From: a virus
Virus record (IMG/VR): IMGVR_UViG_3300043788_000040
Location: 106,564 to 170,563 of that record
Reading direction: 5' to 3' (one strand)
Length of the DNA: 64,000 bases
The notes below the pieces were generated by a model. It had not been told where the DNA came from. It was given only the letters and a program-made list of their open reading frames with translations, and did not search any database. Below, piece after piece: positions 19,600 through 32,713 of the stretch. The translations under genes were made by a program, and so were the position numbers. Numbering within the stretch: the stretch's first letter is position 1; each line of letters opens with the position of its first letter.

Positions 19600-20007
19600 A
19601 TGGAAAGACCATCACGAATCATTGACGCAATCCGTGCTGAACTCGGACCGCACCTCGTCAAATCCAACTACCGCAAATTTCTCCCCAAGGACGCCAAGCC
19701 GTCGTGGGGCACCTGCTACGTGGCGTCCGAAGCCCTGTACCACTTGTGGGGTAAAGAGAATGGCTTCACGCCCGTCCGCATACCGTACAAGGTCAATCGC
19801 ACTATGAACGGGCAGCACTGGTTCCTTGAGCATAGGCCTTCGGGGTTCCAAGTGGACATCACGGCAGACCAGTTCACAAAGTCCCCGCCGAACCGGGTGC
19901 CGGACTGGACGAAGGCGGTTCCAGCCGGATTCCTTACCAAAAAGCCCTCCAAACGTGCCCAACAGATCATTGACGTCGTCCGCAAAAAATTTCAGTTTGA
20001 TAATTGA
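19600..20007 (+). CDS. Papain/transglutaminase-like (YunG-type) Cys-His-Asp protein
   Basis: GTCYVASEALYHL...HWFLE...VDITADQF. Confidence 0.55.
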   Translation: MERPSRIIDAIRAELGPHLVKSNYRKFLPKDAKPSWGTCYVASEALYHLWGKENGFTPVRIPYKVNRTMNGQHWFLEHRPSGFQVDITADQFTKSPPNRVPDWTKAVPAGFLTKKPSKRAQQIIDVVRKKFQFDN

Positions 20008-20032
20008 CAGAATCCCCTAACTACGGTATTCT
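20004..20032 (+). promoter_or_regulatory. Near-consensus sigma70 promoter for the Y RNA-Ro60 operon
   Basis: TTGACA (20004-09), 17 nt spacer, TATTCT (20027-32). Confidence 0.8.
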
Positions 20033-20101
20033 CCCTTAGAGAGACTTTGACGGTGGCGTTTCCCTGCGTCCGCAGGGCGACATCCCCTCTTAGCAATTTT
20101 G

Positions 20102-20203
20102 GTCGTGCAGCGGTGTTTAGCTGACGGATACTTCTTCCAATGAACAGCCCGCTAGGGCTGCGGAGGCTTGCCTCCTTTCCGTTGCTTATTGTTCCCTGCC
20201 GAC
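20102..20203 (+). ncRNA. Y-RNA-like RNA 1 (CCA anticodon-like loop)
   Basis: Terminal stem GUCG-U-GCAG-C-GG / CC-CUGC-CGAC with bulged C; upper stem AGC.GACGGA/UCCGUU.GCU; UACUUC motif; three hairpins UUC-UUCCAAU-GAA, CAGCCC-GCUA-GGGCUG, GGAGG-CUUG-CCUCC; upstream of Ro60. Confidence 0.75.
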
Positions 20204-20212
20204 AATTCTTGT

Positions 20213-20338
20213 GTGCGGCGGTTTTTGGTTACGGTTACTTCTGCCTGTAAAGCAGACGAGCGGGGTTCGACCCCCCGGCGACCCGTGAGGGTCGTGGCGT
20301 GGGCCTAGTCAAATACCGAAGCCTATTGTTCCCCGCAC
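20213..20338 (+). ncRNA. Y-RNA-like RNA 2 containing a circularly permuted tRNA-Tyr(GUA)-like module
   Basis: GUGCGG-C-GG / CC-CCGCAC bulged-C stem; anticodon arm UCUGC-CUGUAAA-GCAGA; T arm CGGGG-UUCGACC-CCCCG; 7-bp acceptor GCGACCC-GUGA-GGGUCGU closed by a GNRA loop. Confidence 0.85.
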
Positions 20339-20456
20339 CTAATTTCACTCAGCACCAAACGGGACGCTTGCATGAGTACGCTGCCCGTGCTGTTGCCGAA
20401 ACATGGCGTAGAACCAAGCGATAGGCACAGCAAATTTTAGTTCAAAGAGGTGAACT

Positions 20457-21887
20457 ATGGCATCACTCAACACTGCAACGAAGACTGCAAAGACTGCAAT
20501 CAAGACCGCCGAGGGCGGCAAGGCTGTCAACATTGGCAAGGCGCTTCAGCTTCAGCGCTTGCTGAACGCATGCCTCCTGTGGGAGGACAACTTTTACTCT
20601 GACGGCGAGTCCGTCGCCAACGCGATGCGCAAGCTCGTGCGTGAGGTTCCTGCCGAGAAGGTCGCCGAACTCGCGATCAAGGCTCGTGAAGAGCAGAAGC
20701 TTCGCCACGCCCCGCTGCTCATCGTGTACGAGATGACCCTCGCCTCCAAGTCTCACCGTGAGCTTGTCGGGGAGACGCTCGCCCGTGTGGTTCAGCGCCC
20801 GGACGAGATCACTGAGTTCGTGGCGATCTACTACAAGCTTGGCGGCGGGAAGCGTCCGCTCTCCAAGCAGGTCAAGAAGGGTCTGGCCGCAGCCTTCAAC
20901 AAGTTCAACGAGTACTCGCTCGCAAAGTACAACCGTGATAAGGACATCAAGCTCGCGGACGTGCTGGCGCTCGTTCACCCGAAGCCGAAGGACAAGGAAC
21001 AGGGTCTTCTTTTCGCGAAGCTTGCGAACAAGGATCACCTGCCGAAGAAGACGAAGTACGCCGCGTTTCCGGTGGCTAACACCTACCGTGCGCTCGCAAA
21101 GAACTTCGTCGGCCTCGTCACGCCGGACACTTGGGAGGTCGCACTCTCTGGTGGAGCGGACAAGAAGGAGACTTTCACTCGTCTCATCGCCGAGGACAAG
21201 CTTGGTGGTCTGGCAATGATCCGCAACCTGCGCAACATGCAGGAAGCGGGCGTGTCGGATGCGGTCATCAAGCAGGGTCTCTCGCAGATGAACGCTGAGC
21301 GTGTGCTTCCGTTCCGCTTCATCTCGGCGGCGAAGTACGCTCCGAAGTTTGAGCAGCACCTTGAGGCAGCGATGTTCAAGTGCCTTGAGGGCTTCTCCAA
21401 GCTGAAGGGCAAGACTGTGCTGCTCGTGGACGTTTCTGGTTCCATGGACAACAAGGTCGGCGGCAAGTCTGATCTCCAGCGTGTGGACGCAGCCGTAGCT
21501 CTCGCAATGTTGCTCCGTGAGATCGGCGAGGACGTGGTTGTCTACTCGTTCTCGGACAATGAGGTTCTCGTTCCGACTCGTCGTGGCTTCGGCCTCGCTG
21601 AGGCGATCAAGAAGTCTCAGCGCCACTCCGGCACCTACCTTGGTCGCTCTTTGACTGCGGTGGCTCGTGCCGAGAATGACGCAGACCGTGTCATTGTGAT
21701 CTCGGACGAACAGGCTCACGATAACGTCTCCAACCCGTTCCACAAGACCGGGACGAAGGCATACATGCTCAACGTCGCTTCTGAAAAGAACGGCGTCGGC
21801 TACAAGAACGGCTGGAACCACATTGATGGCTGGTCTGAAGCTTGCGTTGACTATATCCTCGCGGAGGAAGGTTCTTCCCGCGACTAA
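20457..21887 (+). CDS. rsr: Ro60 / TROVE-domain RNA-binding protein with vWA domain
   Basis: LLWEDNFY, KLRHAPL, QRPDEITE, FNEYSLAKY, HPKP, TWEV.LS, IRNLRN, LPFRF; MIDAS DVSGS; SDEQ; IDGWSE. Confidence 0.95.
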   Translation: MASLNTATKTAKTAIKTAEGGKAVNIGKALQLQRLLNACLLWEDNFYSDGESVANAMRKLVREVPAEKVAELAIKAREEQKLRHAPLLIVYEMTLASKSHRELVGETLARVVQRPDEITEFVAIYYKLGGGKRPLSKQVKKGLAAAFNKFNEYSLAKYNRDKDIKLADVLALVHPKPKDKEQGLLFAKLANKDHLPKKTKYAAFPVANTYRALAKNFVGLVTPDTWEVALSGGADKKETFTRLIAEDKLGGLAMIRNLRNMQEAGVSDAVIKQGLSQMNAERVLPFRFISAAKYAPKFEQHLEAAMFKCLEGFSKLKGKTVLLVDVSGSMDNKVGGKSDLQRVDAAVALAMLLREIGEDVVVYSFSDNEVLVPTRRGFGLAEAIKKSQRHSGTYLGRSLTAVARAENDADRVIVISDEQAHDNVSNPFHKTGTKAYMLNVASEKNGVGYKNGWNHIDGWSEACVDYILAEEGSSRD

Positions 21888-26130: not shown

Positions 26131-27258
26131 ATGAAGAACGAATTCACAGAACAGCGATTTGACTACTCGCAGGGACGTCCCAACGCCCCGGAGTTGACCA
26201 TCACTGTCGGTCTGTCCGGCTGTGGTAAGTCCACGTGGGCGAAGCAGGAAGTAACCCGGAACCGTGGCGACATCGTGCGCCTGAACCGTGACGATATGCG
26301 CAAGATGCTGTTCGCTGACGTGCCGTGGAACTCGTTCAACGAGAACCTCGTGCGCAACTGGCAGCAGGAAGGCGCTCGTCAGGCGCTCCAGATGGGCAAG
26401 AACGTGATCATTGACGACACCAACTGCGTCCGGCGCACCCGGCAGGGTTGGGAAGAGTTTGCACAGAAGAACTTTGTCAAGCTGCGCATCGTGACGTTCA
26501 ACACGGACTTCAAGGTCTGCGTTGAGCGTGACAAGGGACGTGGAGTGATTTGCACCGCATGCGGCAAGGCTAACGGCGTAATGGTCGGTGAGGGCGTGAT
26601 CGCAAAGCAGCGGAAGGATTTGGGTGACAACAAGGTGAAGGACAAGACTCCAAAGGTTTACAAGCTGACTCGTCCGTTCTTTGAGCGTACTGAGTACCTC
26701 AAGAACGGCGGGTGGGTCACCCGTCTGCCCAACGCCAAGTGGGTGTTGGTGGACGTGGACGGCACGCTGGCGACCTTCACAGCCAAGGACGGCACCTCGC
26801 TTCGGGGTCCGTTTGAAGAGCACAAGGTGCTCGTTGACGAACTCATAGAGTCCGTCGCCGAGATGGTTCGGTCGCTGTACCCGACTCATAACGTCTGCAT
26901 AATGTCCGGTCGCCACGACTTCTGCGGCGACGACACCTGCGACTGGCTGGAGATGAACGCTGTCCCGTTTGACCACATACTGATGCGATACAGTGGGGAC
27001 AACCGCTCCGACGCTGTCGTCAAGCAGGAGTTGCTGGACGAACTCACTGCCGTGATAGGCAAGGACAACGTGGCGTTCGTGATAGACGACCGCCCACGTG
27101 TCTGCGACATGTGGAGGGGCAACGGTCTCACGGTGAAGCAGGTTTACGCCGGAGAGGTCTTGGAGAACCCGACCGTCAAGCACGCAGACGGCTGCGCCTA
27201 CGAGAATCAGAAGGGTTACAGGCGTTGCCCCGATTGCGGAGCATTGGAGTATTTTTGA
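26131..27258 (+). CDS. pseT: Polynucleotide 5'-kinase / 3'-phosphatase (T4 PseT-like)
   Basis: P-loop GLSGCGKST, RDDMR, DDTN; HAD DVDGT, SGR, DNRSD..VK, IDDR; inserted CTAC and terminal CPDC. Confidence 0.92.
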   Translation: MKNEFTEQRFDYSQGRPNAPELTITVGLSGCGKSTWAKQEVTRNRGDIVRLNRDDMRKMLFADVPWNSFNENLVRNWQQEGARQALQMGKNVIIDDTNCVRRTRQGWEEFAQKNFVKLRIVTFNTDFKVCVERDKGRGVICTACGKANGVMVGEGVIAKQRKDLGDNKVKDKTPKVYKLTRPFFERTEYLKNGGWVTRLPNAKWVLVDVDGTLATFTAKDGTSLRGPFEEHKVLVDELIESVAEMVRSLYPTHNVCIMSGRHDFCGDDTCDWLEMNAVPFDHILMRYSGDNRSDAVVKQELLDELTAVIGKDNVAFVIDDRPRVCDMWRGNGLTVKQVYAGEVLENPTVKHADGCAYENQKGYRRCPDCGALEYF

Positions 27259-29972: not shown

Positions 29973-31085
29973 ATGATACTCCTCAAGAACATTCTGCCTT
30001 ACGACTTGTTCAAGCGCATGCTTGACGAGGGATACATCCGTTCACAGGTACACCCCCTCTATCCCGAGTTGGTGATCTTCAACTACACCGAGGCGGCGCA
30101 GTTTGACCGCCTGTGGAATGAGGCGACCAACGTGTGCCGTGGCTTGATCGTGCGGCTCGCGAACGGCGTGCTTGACGGCGATGCCGAGGTCGTGGCTCGT
30201 CCGTTCAACAAGTTCCACAACCTGAACACTGCCTACGTGCCGGAGACGATGGAAGAGAACTTGCCGAACGAGGCTCCGCTCGTGACCACGAAGATGGACG
30301 GTTCCATGGGGATCATCTACGAGTACGACGACAAGGCGTGGGTGGCGACTCGTGGATCGTTTGACTCGGATCAGGCTCGCCGGGCGACGGCGTGGTATCG
30401 TCAGCACGCGGCGATGTTGCCGCAGGGTTGGCCGGACGGCGTTACGCCCGTGTGCGAGATCATCTACCCGGAGAACCGGATCGTCGTTGACTACGACTTT
30501 GAGGGGCTTGTCCTGCTCTCAATCATAGACAACGAGACTGGGAAGGAGTTGTCGCGCTTTGATGTTGAAATGTGGGGTGCGATCAACACGCTCCAGGTTG
30601 TCACAAAGTTTGACAAGTCACTCGCTGAGTGCGCAGCCGAGAACACGCTGAACGAGGAGGGGTATGTCCTGACCTACTCCAACGGCGTGAAGGTCAAGGT
30701 GAAGTTTGCGGAGTATGTCCGGCTCCACCGTGTCCTCACTGGGCTGAATCCGAAGGCGATCTGGGAGATGCTTGCCCAGAACGGCGGCGAGGCAGTTGAC
30801 GCAATCCTCGCAGACCCGAAGATGCCGACCACTTTCATCTCGTGGTTCAAGGGATGGGTGGATCAGCTTCGGGGGAAGTATGCGGAGATTGAGCGTGAGG
30901 CGCTGGCTATTTTCGCAGCACGTCCGCAGTCGTCTGTCCGCAAGGATCAGGCACTCTACTTCAAGCAGACACCGCTGCACATGTCGCTCCTGTTTGCAAT
31001 GCTGGACGGCAAGAACTACGCCGGAATCATCTGGGACAGGATCGCACCGAAGGGTAACCAGACGTTCAAGAAGGATGGGGAGTAA
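29973..31085 (+). CDS. rnlA: T4 Rnl1-type RNA ligase
   Basis: CRGLI...RPFNKFHN, motif I KMDGS, ATRGSFDS, EII.PENRIVVDY, EGYV, KVKVKF.EY. Confidence 0.92.
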   Translation: MILLKNILPYDLFKRMLDEGYIRSQVHPLYPELVIFNYTEAAQFDRLWNEATNVCRGLIVRLANGVLDGDAEVVARPFNKFHNLNTAYVPETMEENLPNEAPLVTTKMDGSMGIIYEYDDKAWVATRGSFDSDQARRATAWYRQHAAMLPQGWPDGVTPVCEIIYPENRIVVDYDFEGLVLLSIIDNETGKELSRFDVEMWGAINTLQVVTKFDKSLAECAAENTLNEEGYVLTYSNGVKVKVKFAEYVRLHRVLTGLNPKAIWEMLAQNGGEAVDAILADPKMPTTFISWFKGWVDQLRGKYAEIEREALAIFAARPQSSVRKDQALYFKQTPLHMSLLFAMLDGKNYAGIIWDRIAPKGNQTFKKDGE

Positions 31086-31260: not shown

Positions 31261-31419
31261 ATGATGAACTTCTGCACAGCCTGCCAGAAACCGTACGACG
31301 AAGAAACGCCGTGCGACTGCGACGCGGCTGGGCTGCAACCTGTTCCGGCGTTCACTCAATGGTTTGAAGATCAAGAAGACATTGACTTCAAAGATTCACG
31401 AAGAATCAACAATGACTGA
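31261..31419 (+). CDS. Small Cys-containing protein (52 aa) coupled to cca
   Basis: Manual read MMNFCTACQKPYDEETPCDC...; stop overlaps the cca start. Confidence 0.5.
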   Translation: MMNFCTACQKPYDEETPCDCDAAGLQPVPAFTQWFEDQEDIDFKDSRRINND

Positions 31420-32713
31420 TTCCTTCCATCTCGCAGCGCACGTCAAGGTGATGCACACCCTTGAGCACCACGGCTTTGAGGCTTTCCTCGTCGGTGGCTG
31501 CGTGCGTGACCGCCTTCTCCAACGGCAATCCAAAGACTTTGACGTGACGACTAACGCCACGCCCGATGAAGTTCGTGCGATCTTCCCCAAGACCATTCCA
31601 GTCGGCGCAAAGTTCGGCGTCGTGGTCGTGGTGATGGACGGTGTTCAGATTGAAGTCGCCACCTACCGTGCTGATGGCGCATACACTGACGGTCGGCGAC
31701 CGGATGAAGTCACGTACAGCAAGAGTGCGAAGGACGACGTGACTCGCCGGGACTTCACCATGAACGGCTTGCTGATGAATTCCCTCGGCGAGATCACTGA
31801 CTACGTTGAAGGTCAGGCAGACATCAATCGTGGAATCATCCGTGCCATCGGTGACCCGAACGTGCGCTTCACTGAGGACGCACTGCGCATGCTTCGTGCC
31901 GTCCGTTTCGCAGCACAGCTTGGTTTTGAAATTGAGATCAGGACTCTTGAGGCAATCAGGGACAACGCACGGCTGCTCAAGGTCATTAGCCGGGAGCGTG
32001 TCGCTGCCGAACTGTTCAAAATCTTCTCTGCACCCTTTCCCCTCAAGGGAATCGTGCCTTTCATTTCCACCGGGCTGTTCCGCTACGCCCTGCCGGACAA
32101 TTTCGCTGAGCAAGCGAACATGACACGCACGATTCAGCGCTTCGGCACGTTCACGGCAAACAAAGACGCCATGCTCGGCATGGGAATGTTCTTCGCCGAT
32201 CTGGAATACCTCGGACACAATGCTGACCGCTTGGCAGATTACCTCAAGCTGTCCACGGCGCAGAAGGAAGAGATCGTTTACATGCGGTACCACGTGACCC
32301 GTTTCGGGCAGCACTTGACCGGAGACCTGTTGACCGAGGCTACGCTCAAGCGCAAGCTGCGCACGCCGGGCGTTGAACTGGCGCTGGAGATCATGACGCA
32401 AAACGAAGTCATGGGCAAGACCAATTTCGGCTTTGAGGCGCTGATGGGTTTTGTTCACAAGGTCAGGGCGTACACACCGGAGCAGATCAAGCCGAAGCCG
32501 CTCGTCACGGGCAAGGACTTGATTGATGCCGGGATACCAGCCGGACCGATCTTCACGAGCATCCTGTTTGACGTGGAGAGTCACCAACTTAACGGCGTGT
32601 TCACGACGAAAGAGCAGGGCATGAGTTTCGTGCGTGAGCGCACCTACCAAGACACGCTCAAGGAATGGAACTACATGGGCTTGTCCACGGCGGAAGTGCG
32701 GGAGCTAGAATGA
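31412..32713 (+). CDS. cca: CCA-adding tRNA nucleotidyltransferase (class II)
   Basis: VGGCVRD, DFDVTT, EVATYR, RRDFTMNG, EDALRMLRAVRF, SRERV..EL. Confidence 0.93.
   Translation: MTDSFHLAAHVKVMHTLEHHGFEAFLVGGCVRDRLLQRQSKDFDVTTNATPDEVRAIFPKTIPVGAKFGVVVVVMDGVQIEVATYRADGAYTDGRRPDEVTYSKSAKDDVTRRDFTMNGLLMNSLGEITDYVEGQADINRGIIRAIGDPNVRFTEDALRMLRAVRFAAQLGFEIEIRTLEAIRDNARLLKVISRERVAAELFKIFSAPFPLKGIVPFISTGLFRYALPDNFAEQANMTRTIQRFGTFTANKDAMLGMGMFFADLEYLGHNADRLADYLKLSTAQKEEIVYMRYHVTRFGQHLTGDLLTEATLKRKLRTPGVELALEIMTQNEVMGKTNFGFEALMGFVHKVRAYTPEQIKPKPLVTGKDLIDAGIPAGPIFTSILFDVESHQLNGVFTTKEQGMSFVRERTYQDTLKEWNYMGLSTAEVRELE

What the first reader, a model, noticed from the sequence alone, without database searches (positions are those of the whole stretch)
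20236..20314. Circularly permuted tRNA-Tyr module with a sealed acceptor end inside Y RNA 2
Seen order: anticodon arm (20240-56, GUA at 20247-49), 4-nt variable region, canonical T arm (20261-77), acceptor 3' strand, GUGA tetraloop, acceptor 5' strand (7 bp, 20278-95), then a vestigial D-like hairpin GGC-GUGG-GCC. The tRNA is opened at the D/anticodon junction, where the putative Ro-binding stem is grafted. Inference: with no free CCA end it cannot be charged, so it is a pure mimic unless the GNRA loop is cut and the phage CCA/Thg1/ligase enzymes mature it.
Basis: partly seen in the sequence, partly recalled or inferred. Interest (0 to 1): 0.8.

Follow-up and report, generated by a model that had tools for sequence, protein, structure and literature searches.

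The report
Phage YrlA-type Y RNA, tRNA mimic
This is a phage copy of a known kind of small RNA (a YrlA-type Y RNA, partner of the Ro60/Rsr protein) whose middle imitates a tRNA with its acceptor end closed. It is not a hidden tyrosine tRNA, but its "extra" hairpin does look like an anticodon arm across the whole phage family.

Summary
The element (20213-20338, + strand) lies 119 nt upstream of a phage Ro60/Rsr gene. It is the second of two tandem Y RNAs behind one promoter.

It belongs to the YrlA class (Chen 2014, PMC4201824; Wang 2018, PDB 6CU1). That class is defined by a Ro-binding stem plus a permuted tRNA-like core: T arm, loop-closed "acceptor" stem, D arm, and an upstream hairpin called "V". 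The permuted tRNA with a sealed acceptor is therefore already known. So is the idea of cutting the loop and adding CCA, which has been shown for M. smegmatis YrlA.

Three points go beyond the literature I could read:
- **Hairpin shape.** In about 55 phage relatives the "V" hairpin has anticodon-arm geometry: a 5-bp stem, a 7-nt loop with U at position 2 and AA at positions 6-7, a variable middle triplet, and 4-5 nt to the T stem.
- **The GUA triplet.** It is one base away from the commonest family loop, CUGUUAA, and it changes among close relatives. A Tyr identity is not supported.
- **The D arm.** The near-invariant D arm is reduced to GGC-GUGG-GCC only in this subclade. Sister phages keep a full D arm, and others have lost the whole module.

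Interest is moderate to low.

The parts
20004..20032 (+). Sigma-70-like promoter, TTGACA-17-TATTCT, of the Y RNA-rsr unit
   Evidence: Consensus scan, 10 of 12 matches. The TTGACA and the following region are conserved in relatives. Function is inferred.
20102..20203 (+). Y RNA 1. It has the same Ro stem with a bulged C and the same internal loop, but a non-tRNA-like three-hairpin head (YrlB-like).
   Evidence: MFE -43.8 kcal/mol, z = -3.59, 0 of 200 shuffles as good. Conserved in relatives.
20213..20338 (+). Y RNA 2, a YrlA-type Y RNA (whole element)
   Evidence: Alignment and covariation in 10 close relatives. CM hit at 20229-20321.
20213..20221 (+). 5' strand of the putative Rsr-binding helix: GUGCGG, bulged C20219, then GG. 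It pairs with 20331-20338.
   Evidence: Pairs 20213-18/20333-38 and 20220-21/20331-32. Two pairs change on both sides, UA to CG and CG to UA.
20227..20235 (+). 5' strand of the closing stem (GGU..CGGU). It pairs with 20315-20323.
   Evidence: C20232-G20318 to U20235-A20315, and G20227-C20323 to U20229.G20321. G-C to A-U covariation at 20233/20317.
20235..20238 (+). UUAC, the conserved YUAY motif of YrlA RNAs
   Evidence: UUACUUC is invariant in 24 to 27 relatives. The motif is described in PMC4201824 (Fig. 2 legend), and its UA (nt 23-24) as a kink in S. Typhimurium YrlA in bioRxiv 10.1101/312249.
20240..20256 (+). Anticodon-arm-like hairpin (the published "V" arm position): 5 bp and a 7-nt loop CUGUAAA
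   Evidence: Family-wide 5-bp/7-nt geometry and a U2/A6/A7 loop signature.
20257..20260 (+). 4-nt connector CGAG, at the variable-loop position
   Evidence: The connector is 4-5 nt in 52 of 55 relatives. Here it ends in G, so no Y48 is available for a Levitt pair.
20261..20277 (+). T arm: 5 bp and loop UUCGACC
   Evidence: T-stem pairs covary, 98.8% of cells paired.
20278..20295 (+). Closed acceptor-like stem (AS): 7 bp including a terminal G.U, with a GUGA tetraloop
   Evidence: The AS helix covaries. Its length is about 4-7 bp in close relatives.
20296..20305 (+). Reduced D arm, GGC-GUGG-GCC
   Evidence: It aligns to the full D arm (GGUGYAAYGGCAGCAC type) of L021, L025, L022 and L072. It is invariant within the mini-D subclade, so it has no covariation of its own.
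20306..20314 (+). A-rich 3' linker UAGUCAAAU, between the D arm and the closing stem
   Evidence: An A-rich linker of about 7-10 nt is conserved in most relatives.
20315..20338 (+). 3' strands of the closing stem and Rsr-binding helix, including the conserved UUGUUCC
20457..21887 (+). rsr, the Ro60 orthologue (TROVE and vWA domains)
   Evidence: Pfam TROVE 3.5e-17, VWA_2 1.6e-09, vWA_Ro60 4e-07.
26131..27258 (+). Context: polynucleotide kinase-phosphatase (PNKP)
   Evidence: Pfam HAD_PNKP 8.4e-31, AAA_33 3.6e-24.
29973..31085 (+). Context: Rnl1-type RNA ligase
   Evidence: Pfam RNA_lig_T4_1 2.2e-18.
31364..32713 (+). Context: CCA-adding / poly(A) polymerase family nucleotidyltransferase
   Evidence: Pfam PolyA_pol 3.7e-36, PolyA_pol_RNAbd 8.3e-15.

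Best explanation
Window 20213-20338 is a YrlA-class Y RNA of a large soil phage (170.6-kb record, 31 tRNA genes). It is made from the same promoter as a second, non-tRNA-like Y RNA and the phage Ro60/Rsr gene.

Its ends pair into a bulged helix. By analogy with all studied Y RNAs, that helix is held by the Rsr ring (inferred). Its middle is a tRNA look-alike that serves as a handle for tRNA-recognising or RNA-decay proteins, such as host PNPase in RYPER-type complexes or tRNA modification enzymes (inferred from S. Typhimurium, D. radiodurans and Thermus phage phiLo).

The look-alike has five helices:
- the closing stem leading to the Ro helix;
- an anticodon-arm-shaped hairpin;
- a T arm;
- a loop-closed acceptor-like stem;
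- a D arm that, in this subclade only, has shrunk to a 3-bp hairpin.

The layout equals the junction of two tandem tRNAs (anticodon arm, variable loop, T arm and acceptor 3' strand, then spacer, then acceptor 5' strand and D arm). This fits the published dimeric-tRNA origin model.

The GUA triplet is a one-base variant of the commonest family loop, CUGUUAA. It carries no tyrosine identity. As encoded, the RNA is a mimic and not a chargeable tRNA.
For: - **Synteny.** TROVE and vWA Rsr lies 119 nt downstream on the same strand. All 85 model hits in 86 sources are on the rsr strand.
- **Defining YrlA parts are present.** The YUAY motif, hairpin, T arm and closed AS are all there, as described in PMC4201824 and bioRxiv 10.1101/312249.
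- **Orthology.** Close relatives (79-99% Rsr identity) carry the same two-RNA unit. Sister forms with a full D arm score 66 and 57 bits with model R1.
- **Link to a phage named in the literature.** R1 also hits Caulobacter phage CcrColossus upstream of its rsr at 78.7 bits. PMC12135203 names that phage as one with published Y-like RNAs.
- **Covariation.** It supports all helices.
- **Hairpin is anticodon-arm-like.**
  - By unbiased MFE, 5 bp with a 7-nt loop is the commonest geometry (14 of 42).
  - Of 55 distinct UAC-prefixed hits, 38 have 7-nt loops. U is at loop position 2 in 37 of 38, A at position 6 in 32 of 38, and A at position 7 in 33 of 38. There are 20 different middle triplets.
  - The connector is 4-5 nt in 52 of 55.
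  - The stem stays 5 bp although its register against the invariant UUACUUC shifts by 1-2 nt.
  - The phage's own class II tRNAs have variable arms of 4-5 bp with 3-5-nt loops and 1-nt flanks.
- **Dimeric-tRNA likeness.** In the phage's own genome R1 hits tandem-tRNA junctions. There the hairpin positions fall on real anticodon arms.
- **Functional analogies.** Rsr-Y RNA-PNPase complexes, and TruB/DusA modification of YrlA (PMC4201824). Phage Ro60 with two upstream Yrl RNAs and host PNPase (PMC12135203).
Against: - The D arm, described as nearly invariant in YrlA RNAs, is missing in its canonical form. Because of this the model score is weak (23.8 bits), below tandem-tRNA false positives in the same genome (up to 39.8 bits).
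- The published 5' motif GNCGAAN0-1G is not present at the 5' end. A CGAA occurs only on the 3' strand, at 20317-20320.
- Core tertiary partners (U8-A14, the R15-Y48 Levitt pair) have no obvious counterparts here. The L shape may not form.
- Relatives L023 and L030, and a DNA contig in run X1, lack the whole tRNA-like module. The module is therefore dispensable in some lineages.
- There is no direct evidence of transcription ends, Rsr binding or modification. The metatranscriptome contig over 20252-20822 has low depth and cannot exclude DNA carry-over.
- Which helix stacks on the D stem cannot be settled from sequence.
Confidence: 0.8

Rival explanations
1. Anticodon-loop decoy or sensor. The hairpin is a working mimic of an anticodon stem-loop. 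It is recognised by anticodon-directed enzymes: host anticodon nucleases, or tRNA-guanine transglycosylase and MiaA. This would link Rsr/PNPase, or the phage's PNKP-ligase-CCA repair set, to tRNA damage during infection.
For: - The conserved U33/A37/A38-like loop signature, with a variable middle triplet, and the 5-bp/7-nt geometry.
- 13 of 38 seven-nt loops carry U-G-U (GUU, GUA, GUC, GUG). From my own knowledge, this is the element read by tRNA-guanine transglycosylase and by colicin-E5-type nucleases.
- The loop is identical to that of the phage's own tRNA-Tyr.
- PNKP, an Rnl1-type ligase and a CCA-adding enzyme lie 6-12 kb downstream.
- In bacteria the rsr-yrlBA-rtcBA operon responds to damaged tRNAs (title and abstract of PMC7790460).
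Against: - No experiment bears on this.
- The loop signature may simply be inherited from a tRNA ancestor and kept for folding.
- A37-A38 are constant whatever the triplet, so specific isoacceptors are not copied.
- The prevalence of GUN may reflect shared ancestry, since CUGUUAA is the commonest loop.
- The repair genes are not adjacent and are not shown to be co-regulated.
Confidence: 0.1
2. Pro-tRNA reading. RNase P cuts between A20288 and G20289, the 3' side is trimmed and CCA is added. This gives a two-piece tRNA-like RNA that could be aminoacylated.
For: - M. smegmatis YrlA, which has a 7-bp closed stem, is cut by RNase P in vitro and carries CCA in vivo (PMC4201824, section 8).
- The window's stem is 7 bp.
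- The phage encodes a CCA-adding-type enzyme.
Against: - The seventh pair is a G.U.
- Close relatives have stems of about 4-7 bp (L072 4, L022 5, L024/L025/L026/L031/L032 6), so the feature is not conserved.
- No C follows the stem. The loop is GUGA, so trimming would be needed first.
- The D arm core is degenerate.
- Cleavage was not seen for S. Typhimurium YrlA or D. radiodurans Yrn1 (PMC4201824).
- For tyrosine: there is no long variable arm, the discriminator-position base is G, and the triplet is not conserved.
Confidence: 0.07
3. Decaying module. In this subclade the tRNA-like core is a relic that no longer folds as a tRNA or binds tRNA-specific partners. Only the Ro-binding stem matters.
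For: - Loss of the canonical D arm and of the Y48-type connector end.
- L031 has a T loop of UCCGAAU, changing the U55 position.
- L023 and L030, and a contig in run X1, have deleted the module altogether.
- Y RNA 1 works with a non-tRNA head.
Against: - Within the mini-D subclade, across Rsr identities from 99% down to 64%, the hairpin, T arm and closed stem all persist.
- Hairpin stems change in a compensatory way: UCUGC/GCAGA, UCUCU/AGAGA, UCUGA/UCAGA.
- The small hairpin keeps a GG in its loop that could still meet the T loop.
Confidence: 0.13

Closest known systems
[quoted passage not shown] 2014, PMC4201824; S. Typhimurium YrlA structure PDB 6CU1, Wang et al. 2018, bioRxiv 10.1101/312249)
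   Same: - Encoded next to rsr on the same strand.
- A terminal helix for Ro60/Rsr.
- The conserved YUAY motif.
- A permuted tRNA-like core in the order hairpin, T arm, loop-closed acceptor-like stem, D arm.
- Often paired with a second Y RNA (YrlB).
- Reported by Chen et al. in 22 phages.
   Different: - The D arm is reduced to a 3-bp, 4-nt hairpin.
- No UA dinucleotide lies between the closed stem and the D arm.
- The connector ends in G, so no Levitt partner is available.
- The 5' GNCGAA motif was not found.
- A 9-nt linker separates the D arm from the closing stem. It is 1 nt in S. Typhimurium.
- The upstream hairpin has anticodon-arm geometry rather than that of a class II variable arm.
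[quoted passage not shown]
   Same: A 7-bp closed acceptor-like stem. Two Y RNAs upstream of rsr, processed from one precursor.
   Different: Cleavage is untested here. One of the seven pairs is a G.U. The stem length is not conserved in relatives. No C is encoded after the stem.
Thermus phage phiLo Ro60 with Yrl1 and Yrl2 (PMC12135203)
   Same: A phage Ro60 with two Y-like RNAs directly upstream. The proposed use is capture of host PNPase.
   Different: In the passages I read, the phiLo RNAs are described by a stem-bulge-stem with a CGAA motif and not as tRNA mimics. I made no sequence comparison.
Tandem (dimeric) tRNA transcripts, the proposed ancestor of YrlA (Sim and Wolin 2018, as cited in bioRxiv 10.1101/312249)
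   Same: The order of elements is the same: anticodon arm, variable loop, T arm, acceptor 3' strand, spacer, acceptor 5' strand, D arm. My YrlA model hits tandem-tRNA junctions in the phage's own tRNA array.
   Different: There is no CCA or spacer between the acceptor strands, only a tetraloop. The outer tRNA halves are replaced by the Ro-binding stem.

Membership tests
YrlA Y RNA | Encoded within about 4 kb of a Ro60/Rsr (TROVE) gene, on the same strand | tested here: met
   rsr lies at 20457-21887 (+), with TROVE and vWA domains. The RNA ends at 20338.
YrlA Y RNA | T stem-loop of tRNA type (GGUUCRA-like) | tested here: met
   20261-20277, CGGGG-UUCGACC-CCCCG. The helix covaries in the family.
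YrlA Y RNA | A loop-closed stem (AS) between the T and D arms, at the acceptor-stem position | tested here: met
   20278-20295, 7 bp and GUGA. It covaries.
YrlA Y RNA | A nearly invariant D stem-loop (UAGCUCAGUUGGUAGAGC type) after a UA dinucleotide | tested here: not met
   Only GGC-GUGG-GCC is present, at 20296-20305. Orthologous RNAs of sister phages (L021, L025, L022, L032, L072) do have a full D arm.
YrlA Y RNA | Conserved YUAY motif at the start of the V region | tested here: met
   UUAC at 20235-20238. UUACUUC is invariant in the aligned relatives.
YrlA Y RNA | GNCGAAN0-1G motif near the 5' end (putative Rsr contact) | tested here: not met
   The 5' strand reads GUGCGGCGGU. A CGAA occurs only on the 3' strand (20317-20320). 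A conserved bulged helix and a 3' UUGUUCC take the place of the published motif.
YrlA Y RNA | Sequence and structure homology to accepted phage YrlA RNAs | tested here: met
   - Model R1 scores 23.8 bits (E = 0.0036) on the window.
- It scores 66 and 57 bits on the sister orthologues L021 and L025.
- It scores 78.7 bits on Caulobacter phage CcrColossus.
- Caveat: tandem tRNAs in the same genome score up to 39.8 bits.
- Rfam 15 gave no Y RNA hit and appears to hold no YrlA model.
YrlA Y RNA | Bound by Rsr; carries pseudouridine 55 and dihydrouridine | not testable with these tools
   Needs immunoprecipitation and modification mapping.
tRNA-Tyr (bacterial, class II) | Free acceptor end with CCA, a long variable arm, and a conserved GUA anticodon | tested here: not met
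   - The acceptor is closed by GUGA and the connector is 4 nt.
- ARAGORN finds no tRNA in the window.
- The triplet varies among close relatives (GUA, GUU, GUG, UAG, AUG).
- The phage's real tRNA-Tyr lies elsewhere in the genome and has a long variable arm.
Anticodon stem-loop (as a structural module) | A 5-bp stem, a 7-nt loop with U33 and a purine at 37, and 4-5 nt (class I variable loop) before the T stem | tested here: met
   - Window: 5 bp, loop C-U-GUA-A-A, 4-nt connector.
- Family: 38 of 55 loops are 7 nt. U is at position 2 in 37 of 38, A at position 6 in 32 of 38. The connector is 4-5 nt in 52 of 55.
- The Rfam tRNA model aligns it to the anticodon arm.
- Whether it stacks on the D stem in three dimensions is untestable here.

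The most novel reading that the evidence does not exclude
The hairpin that the YrlA literature calls a long variable arm is, in phage YrlA RNAs, a selected anticodon stem-loop mimic. That would make these RNAs complete five-helix tRNA mimics, with the Ro stem inserted at the position-26 junction. The hairpin would work as a decoy or sensor for anticodon-directed host nucleases or modification enzymes, tying phage Ro60 to the phage's tRNA repair genes (PNKP, Rnl1-type ligase, CCA-adding enzyme).
Probability: 0.1. Interest if true: 0.75.

Novelty: new member of a known kind. Interest (0 to 1): 0.38.

Why it matters
- **Annotation.** This corrects what could be taken for a hidden tRNA-Tyr. It also shows that such modules are already mis-annotated as tRNAs in deposited phage genomes. 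"tRNA-Ser" in Brevundimonas phage Gurke and "tRNA-Gln" in CcrColossus both overlap YrlA-model hits.
- **Y RNA biology.** The data give a family-wide, testable refinement. The "V arm" of phage YrlAs has the shape and loop signature of an anticodon arm. This supports the dimeric-tRNA origin model and raises the question of which helix occupies the anticodon-stem position in three dimensions.
- **Natural experiments.** The clade offers three states among close relatives: full D arm, mini D arm, and module deleted. These could be used to ask what the tRNA-like domain does, which is still an open question for all bacterial Y RNAs.

Tried and rejected
- **Rfam.** At gathering thresholds it found nothing in the window. 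It found no Y RNA family in 10 relatives. I could not use a curated YrlA model, so I built my own (R1).
- **Megablast to phage records.** No match.
- **Genome-contig scan with Rsr.** Only two distant hits. Not used further.
- **MAFFT alignments.**
  - Alignments of whole modules (A2) and of the hairpin alone (A3) align by the invariant UUACUUC and break the structural register.
  - RNAalifold on A1 therefore missed the hairpin.
  - I used descriptor and MFE parsing and a CM-guided alignment instead. The CM alignment leans towards the model.
- **Supplements and reviews.** The Chen 2014 supplementary alignments are not held. The two Wolin-lab reviews (PMC6047535, PMC10870794) are not held. I therefore could not check whether the anticodon-like shape of the V arm has been remarked on in print.
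- **Metatranscriptome.**
  - Only contigs were available, at depth 2-4. Neighbouring coding DNA is covered equally.
  - This gives no ends, no strand, and no proof of transcription or cleavage.
  - Stretches without cover in those runs mean nothing.
- **Strand-swapped stem.** The hairpin stem has the same two 5-mers (UCUGC and GCAGA) as the phage tRNA-Tyr anticodon stem, on opposite strands. I considered recombination with tRNA-Tyr. I set it aside because only 2 of 5 pairs agree position by position, and because relatives with the same stem carry GUU.
- **Alternative pairing.** GACGAG (20255-60) could pair with CUAGUC (20305-10), 5 of 6 pairs. Both sides are invariant in the subclade, so it cannot be tested.
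- **Thg1.** Pfam gave no match to any family for several unnamed ORFs near the ligase, so no Thg1 match among those scanned.

Full report
**1. What is in the sequence**

- a hairpin, UCUGC / CUGUAAA / GCAGA (20240-56, GUA at 20247-49);
- the connector CGAG (20257-60);
- a T arm, CGGGG / UUCGACC / CCCCG (20261-77);
- a 7-bp stem closed by GUGA (20278-95, the outermost pair a G.U);
- the small hairpin GGC / GUGG / GCC (20296-305).

The MFE fold of 20190-20350 gives the hairpin, the closed stem and the small hairpin as listed, the T stem only in part, and two closing stems. Its energy is not exceptional for this G+C content (z = -0.97). ARAGORN finds no tRNA in the window. Rfam has no hit at gathering thresholds. 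With relaxed thresholds the only Rfam match is the tRNA model, at 20 bits and E = 0.19. It places the hairpin on the anticodon arm and the next arm on the T arm.

**2. Context**

- The ORF at 20457-21887 is a Ro60/Rsr orthologue with TROVE, VWA_2 and vWA_Ro60 domains.
- A TTGACA-17-TATTCT promoter-like site lies at 20004-20032.
- Between promoter and rsr lie two units that share a terminal helix with a bulged C and an internal loop whose 3' strand carries UUGUUCC.
- Unit 1 (20102-20203) folds strongly (z = -3.59). Its head has three plain hairpins.
- Unit 2 (20213-20338) holds the tRNA-like module.
- The window is the last 64 kb of a 170,563-bp phage record (56% G+C).
- That record has 31 tRNA genes, including a genuine class II tRNA-Tyr(GUA) elsewhere in the genome.
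- Downstream in the window are a PNKP, an Rnl1-type RNA ligase and a CCA-adding-family enzyme.

**3. Relatives**

Rsr searches returned 18 viral contigs, 79 metagenome loci and 90 phage records. Loci with 64-99% Rsr identity carry the same promoter, Y RNA 1, Y RNA 2 and rsr unit.

In an alignment of 10 such Y RNA 2 sequences, the terminal helix and closing stem keep pairing through double changes. The module itself occurs in three states:
- a full D arm (GGUGYAAYGGCAGCAC type) in L021, L025, L022, L032 and L072;
- the mini hairpin GGC-KUGG-GCC in the window, L019, L024, L026, L029 and L031;
- no T arm, closed stem or D arm at all in L023 and L030.

A DNA contig of a relative in run X1 likewise skips 20228 to 20320.

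**4. A model of the family**

I built a covariance model (R1) from 10 more distant phage elements with a hand-set five-helix structure.
- It found 85 matches in 86 sources, all on the rsr strand.
- The window matched at 20229-20321 (23.8 bits, E = 0.0036).
- The sister orthologues L021 and L025 scored 66 and 57 bits.
- Upstream of rsr it also hits Caulobacter phage CcrColossus (78.7 bits), Xanthomonas phage Olaya (84.7) and Brevundimonas phage Gurke (76.5).
- PMC12135203 names CcrColossus among phages with published Y-like RNAs.

On the model-guided alignment, 89% of cells pair against 56% in shuffles. All six helices contain pairs that change on both sides. The hairpin is 91.6% paired, with double changes at all 5 pairs. 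This alignment is fitted to the model and leans towards it.

**5. Comparison with the literature**

Chen et al. 2014 (PMC4201824) define YrlA RNAs as follows:
- encoded near rsr on the same strand;
- a tRNA-like domain made of a "V" stem-loop, a T arm, a closed "AS" stem-loop at the acceptor position, and a near-invariant D arm;
- a conserved YUAY motif at the start of V;
- a GNCGAAN0-1G motif near the 5' end.

They report such RNAs in 254 bacteria and 22 phages. They show that M. smegmatis YrlA, with a 7-bp AS, is cut by RNase P and carries CCA in vivo.

Wang et al. 2018 (bioRxiv 10.1101/312249) solved the S. Typhimurium domain (PDB 6CU1). It is L-shaped, and the stem leading to the Ro site takes the anticodon-stem position. 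They treat long V regions as class II-type variable loops. They also cite the dimeric-tRNA origin model.

The window's RNA meets most membership tests. It fails the D-arm and 5'-motif tests, so it is a degenerate member whose orthologues are canonical.

**6. Anticodon arm or variable arm?**

- Unbiased MFE folding of the segment between UAC and the T stem gives 5 bp with a 7-nt loop as the commonest outcome (14 of 42).
- Among 55 distinct UAC-prefixed model hits, 38 have 7-nt loops. U is at loop position 2 in 37 of 38, A at position 6 in 32 of 38, and A at position 7 in 33 of 38.
- Those 38 loops carry 20 different middle triplets. The connector to the T stem is 4-5 nt in 52 of 55, often AGGUC.
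- The stem stays 5 bp even though its register against the invariant UUACUUC shifts by one or two bases between lineages.
- The phage's own class II tRNAs have variable arms of 4-5 bp with 3-5-nt loops and single-base flanks.
- In the phage's tRNA array, R1 matches tandem-tRNA junctions at up to 39.8 bits. There the hairpin positions fall on real anticodon arms.
- In contrast to S. Typhimurium (1 nt), about 9 nt separate the D arm from the closing stem here. That fits a five-way junction. Which helix stacks on the D stem cannot be decided from sequence.

**7. Is it tyrosine-specific?**

No.
- The triplet is GUA in the window, L019 and L031.
- It is GUU in L024 (same stem), L021 and L025.
- It is GUG in L072, UAG in L032 and AUG in L029.
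- CUGUUAA is the commonest loop across the family. It also occurs in the Caulobacter and Xanthomonas phages. GUA is one substitution away from it.
- The loop equals that of the phage tRNA-Tyr, and the stem uses the same two 5-mers on swapped strands. Only 2 of 5 pairs agree position by position, so I treat this as coincidence.

**8. Function**

Shown here:
- position next to rsr;
- conserved and covarying helices;
- tRNA-like arms.

Inferred from named precedents:
- Rsr binds the terminal helix.
- The tRNA-like head recruits other proteins. In D. radiodurans and S. Typhimurium this is PNPase, and with the Thermus phage Ro60 it is host PNPase (PMC4201824, PMC12135203).
- The head may also be modified by TruB and DusA.

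Processing by RNase P is possible, since the stem is 7 bp. It is unlikely to be essential, because stem length varies from about 4 to 7 bp among close relatives. The decoy or sensor idea for the anticodon-like loop is not excluded and would be the interesting outcome, but nothing tests it here. A soil metatranscriptome holds a contig spanning 20252-20822 at low depth. This is only a weak hint of expression.

**9. Verdict**

- The class is already known, and this is a new, D-arm-reduced member.
- The family-wide anticodon-arm signature of the "V" hairpin is the one point that adds to what I could find in print. I could not read the two main reviews or the 2014 supplement.

The scan's earlier notes on this genome describe the same operon and the same RNA. 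I checked the promoter and Y RNA 1 myself.

Noticed in passing
L101:2191-2265 (Brevundimonas phage vB_BpoS-Gurke) and L100:1553-1620 (Caulobacter phage CcrColossus): Features annotated in GenBank as tRNA-Ser and tRNA-Gln, just upstream of rsr, overlap hits of my YrlA model (L101 2207-2308 at 76.5 bits; L100 1567-1693 at 55.8 bits). They are probably Y RNA modules mis-called as tRNAs. CcrColossus has five model hits in tandem upstream of rsr.
   Followed up: partly
L029:1376-1473: A relative (64% Rsr identity) carries a bacterial small SRP RNA (Rfam RF00169, 66.6 bits) between Y RNA 2 and rsr. L021 and L033 show an SRP-like GUCAGGUCCG motif at the same place. The window has no such insert.
   Followed up: no
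window 20339-20456: A segment of about 115 nt between Y RNA 2 and rsr is conserved in L019, L021, L026, L032 and L072. It is absent in L023, L024, L030 and L031, and it is skipped (20344 to 20457) by a DNA contig in run X1. The fold is unremarkable (z = -0.85). It could be a third small RNA or a leader.
   Followed up: partly
L023:330-391, L030:1408-1469, and run X1 joint 20228->20320: Natural variants of Y RNA 2 keep the Ro stem, UUACUUC and a 3-bp, 7-nt-loop hairpin, but lack the T arm, closed stem and D arm. The tRNA-like core behaves as a discrete indel.
   Followed up: partly
window 20102-20203: Y RNA 1 has the same terminal helix and AUACUUC motif, a tiny hairpin UUC/UUCCAAU/GAA with a 7-nt loop, and then two plain hairpins. 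It is very stable (z = -3.59) and is YrlB-like.
   Followed up: partly
G000:C1:30590-33571 (outside the window): The YrlA model scores up to 39.8 bits on junctions of tandem tRNA genes in the phage's tRNA array. That is higher than on the window's own Y RNA. It illustrates both the dimeric-tRNA resemblance and the false-positive risk.
   Followed up: yes
G000:C1:68467-68554 (outside the window): The phage tRNA-Tyr anticodon arm is GCAGA-CUGUAAA-UCUGC. The Y RNA hairpin is UCUGC-CUGUAAA-GCAGA, with the same loop and the stem 5-mers on swapped strands. Probably coincidence.
   Followed up: partly
window 20036-20100: A conserved leader, AGAGAGACUUUGACGGU, followed by a variable hairpin, lies between the promoter and Y RNA 1 in all close relatives. 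Its purpose is unknown.
   Followed up: no
L031:1393-1409: In the mini-D relative L031 the T loop reads UCCGAAU, with C at the U55 position. This suggests a relaxed constraint on the elbow in the mini-D subclade.
   Followed up: no
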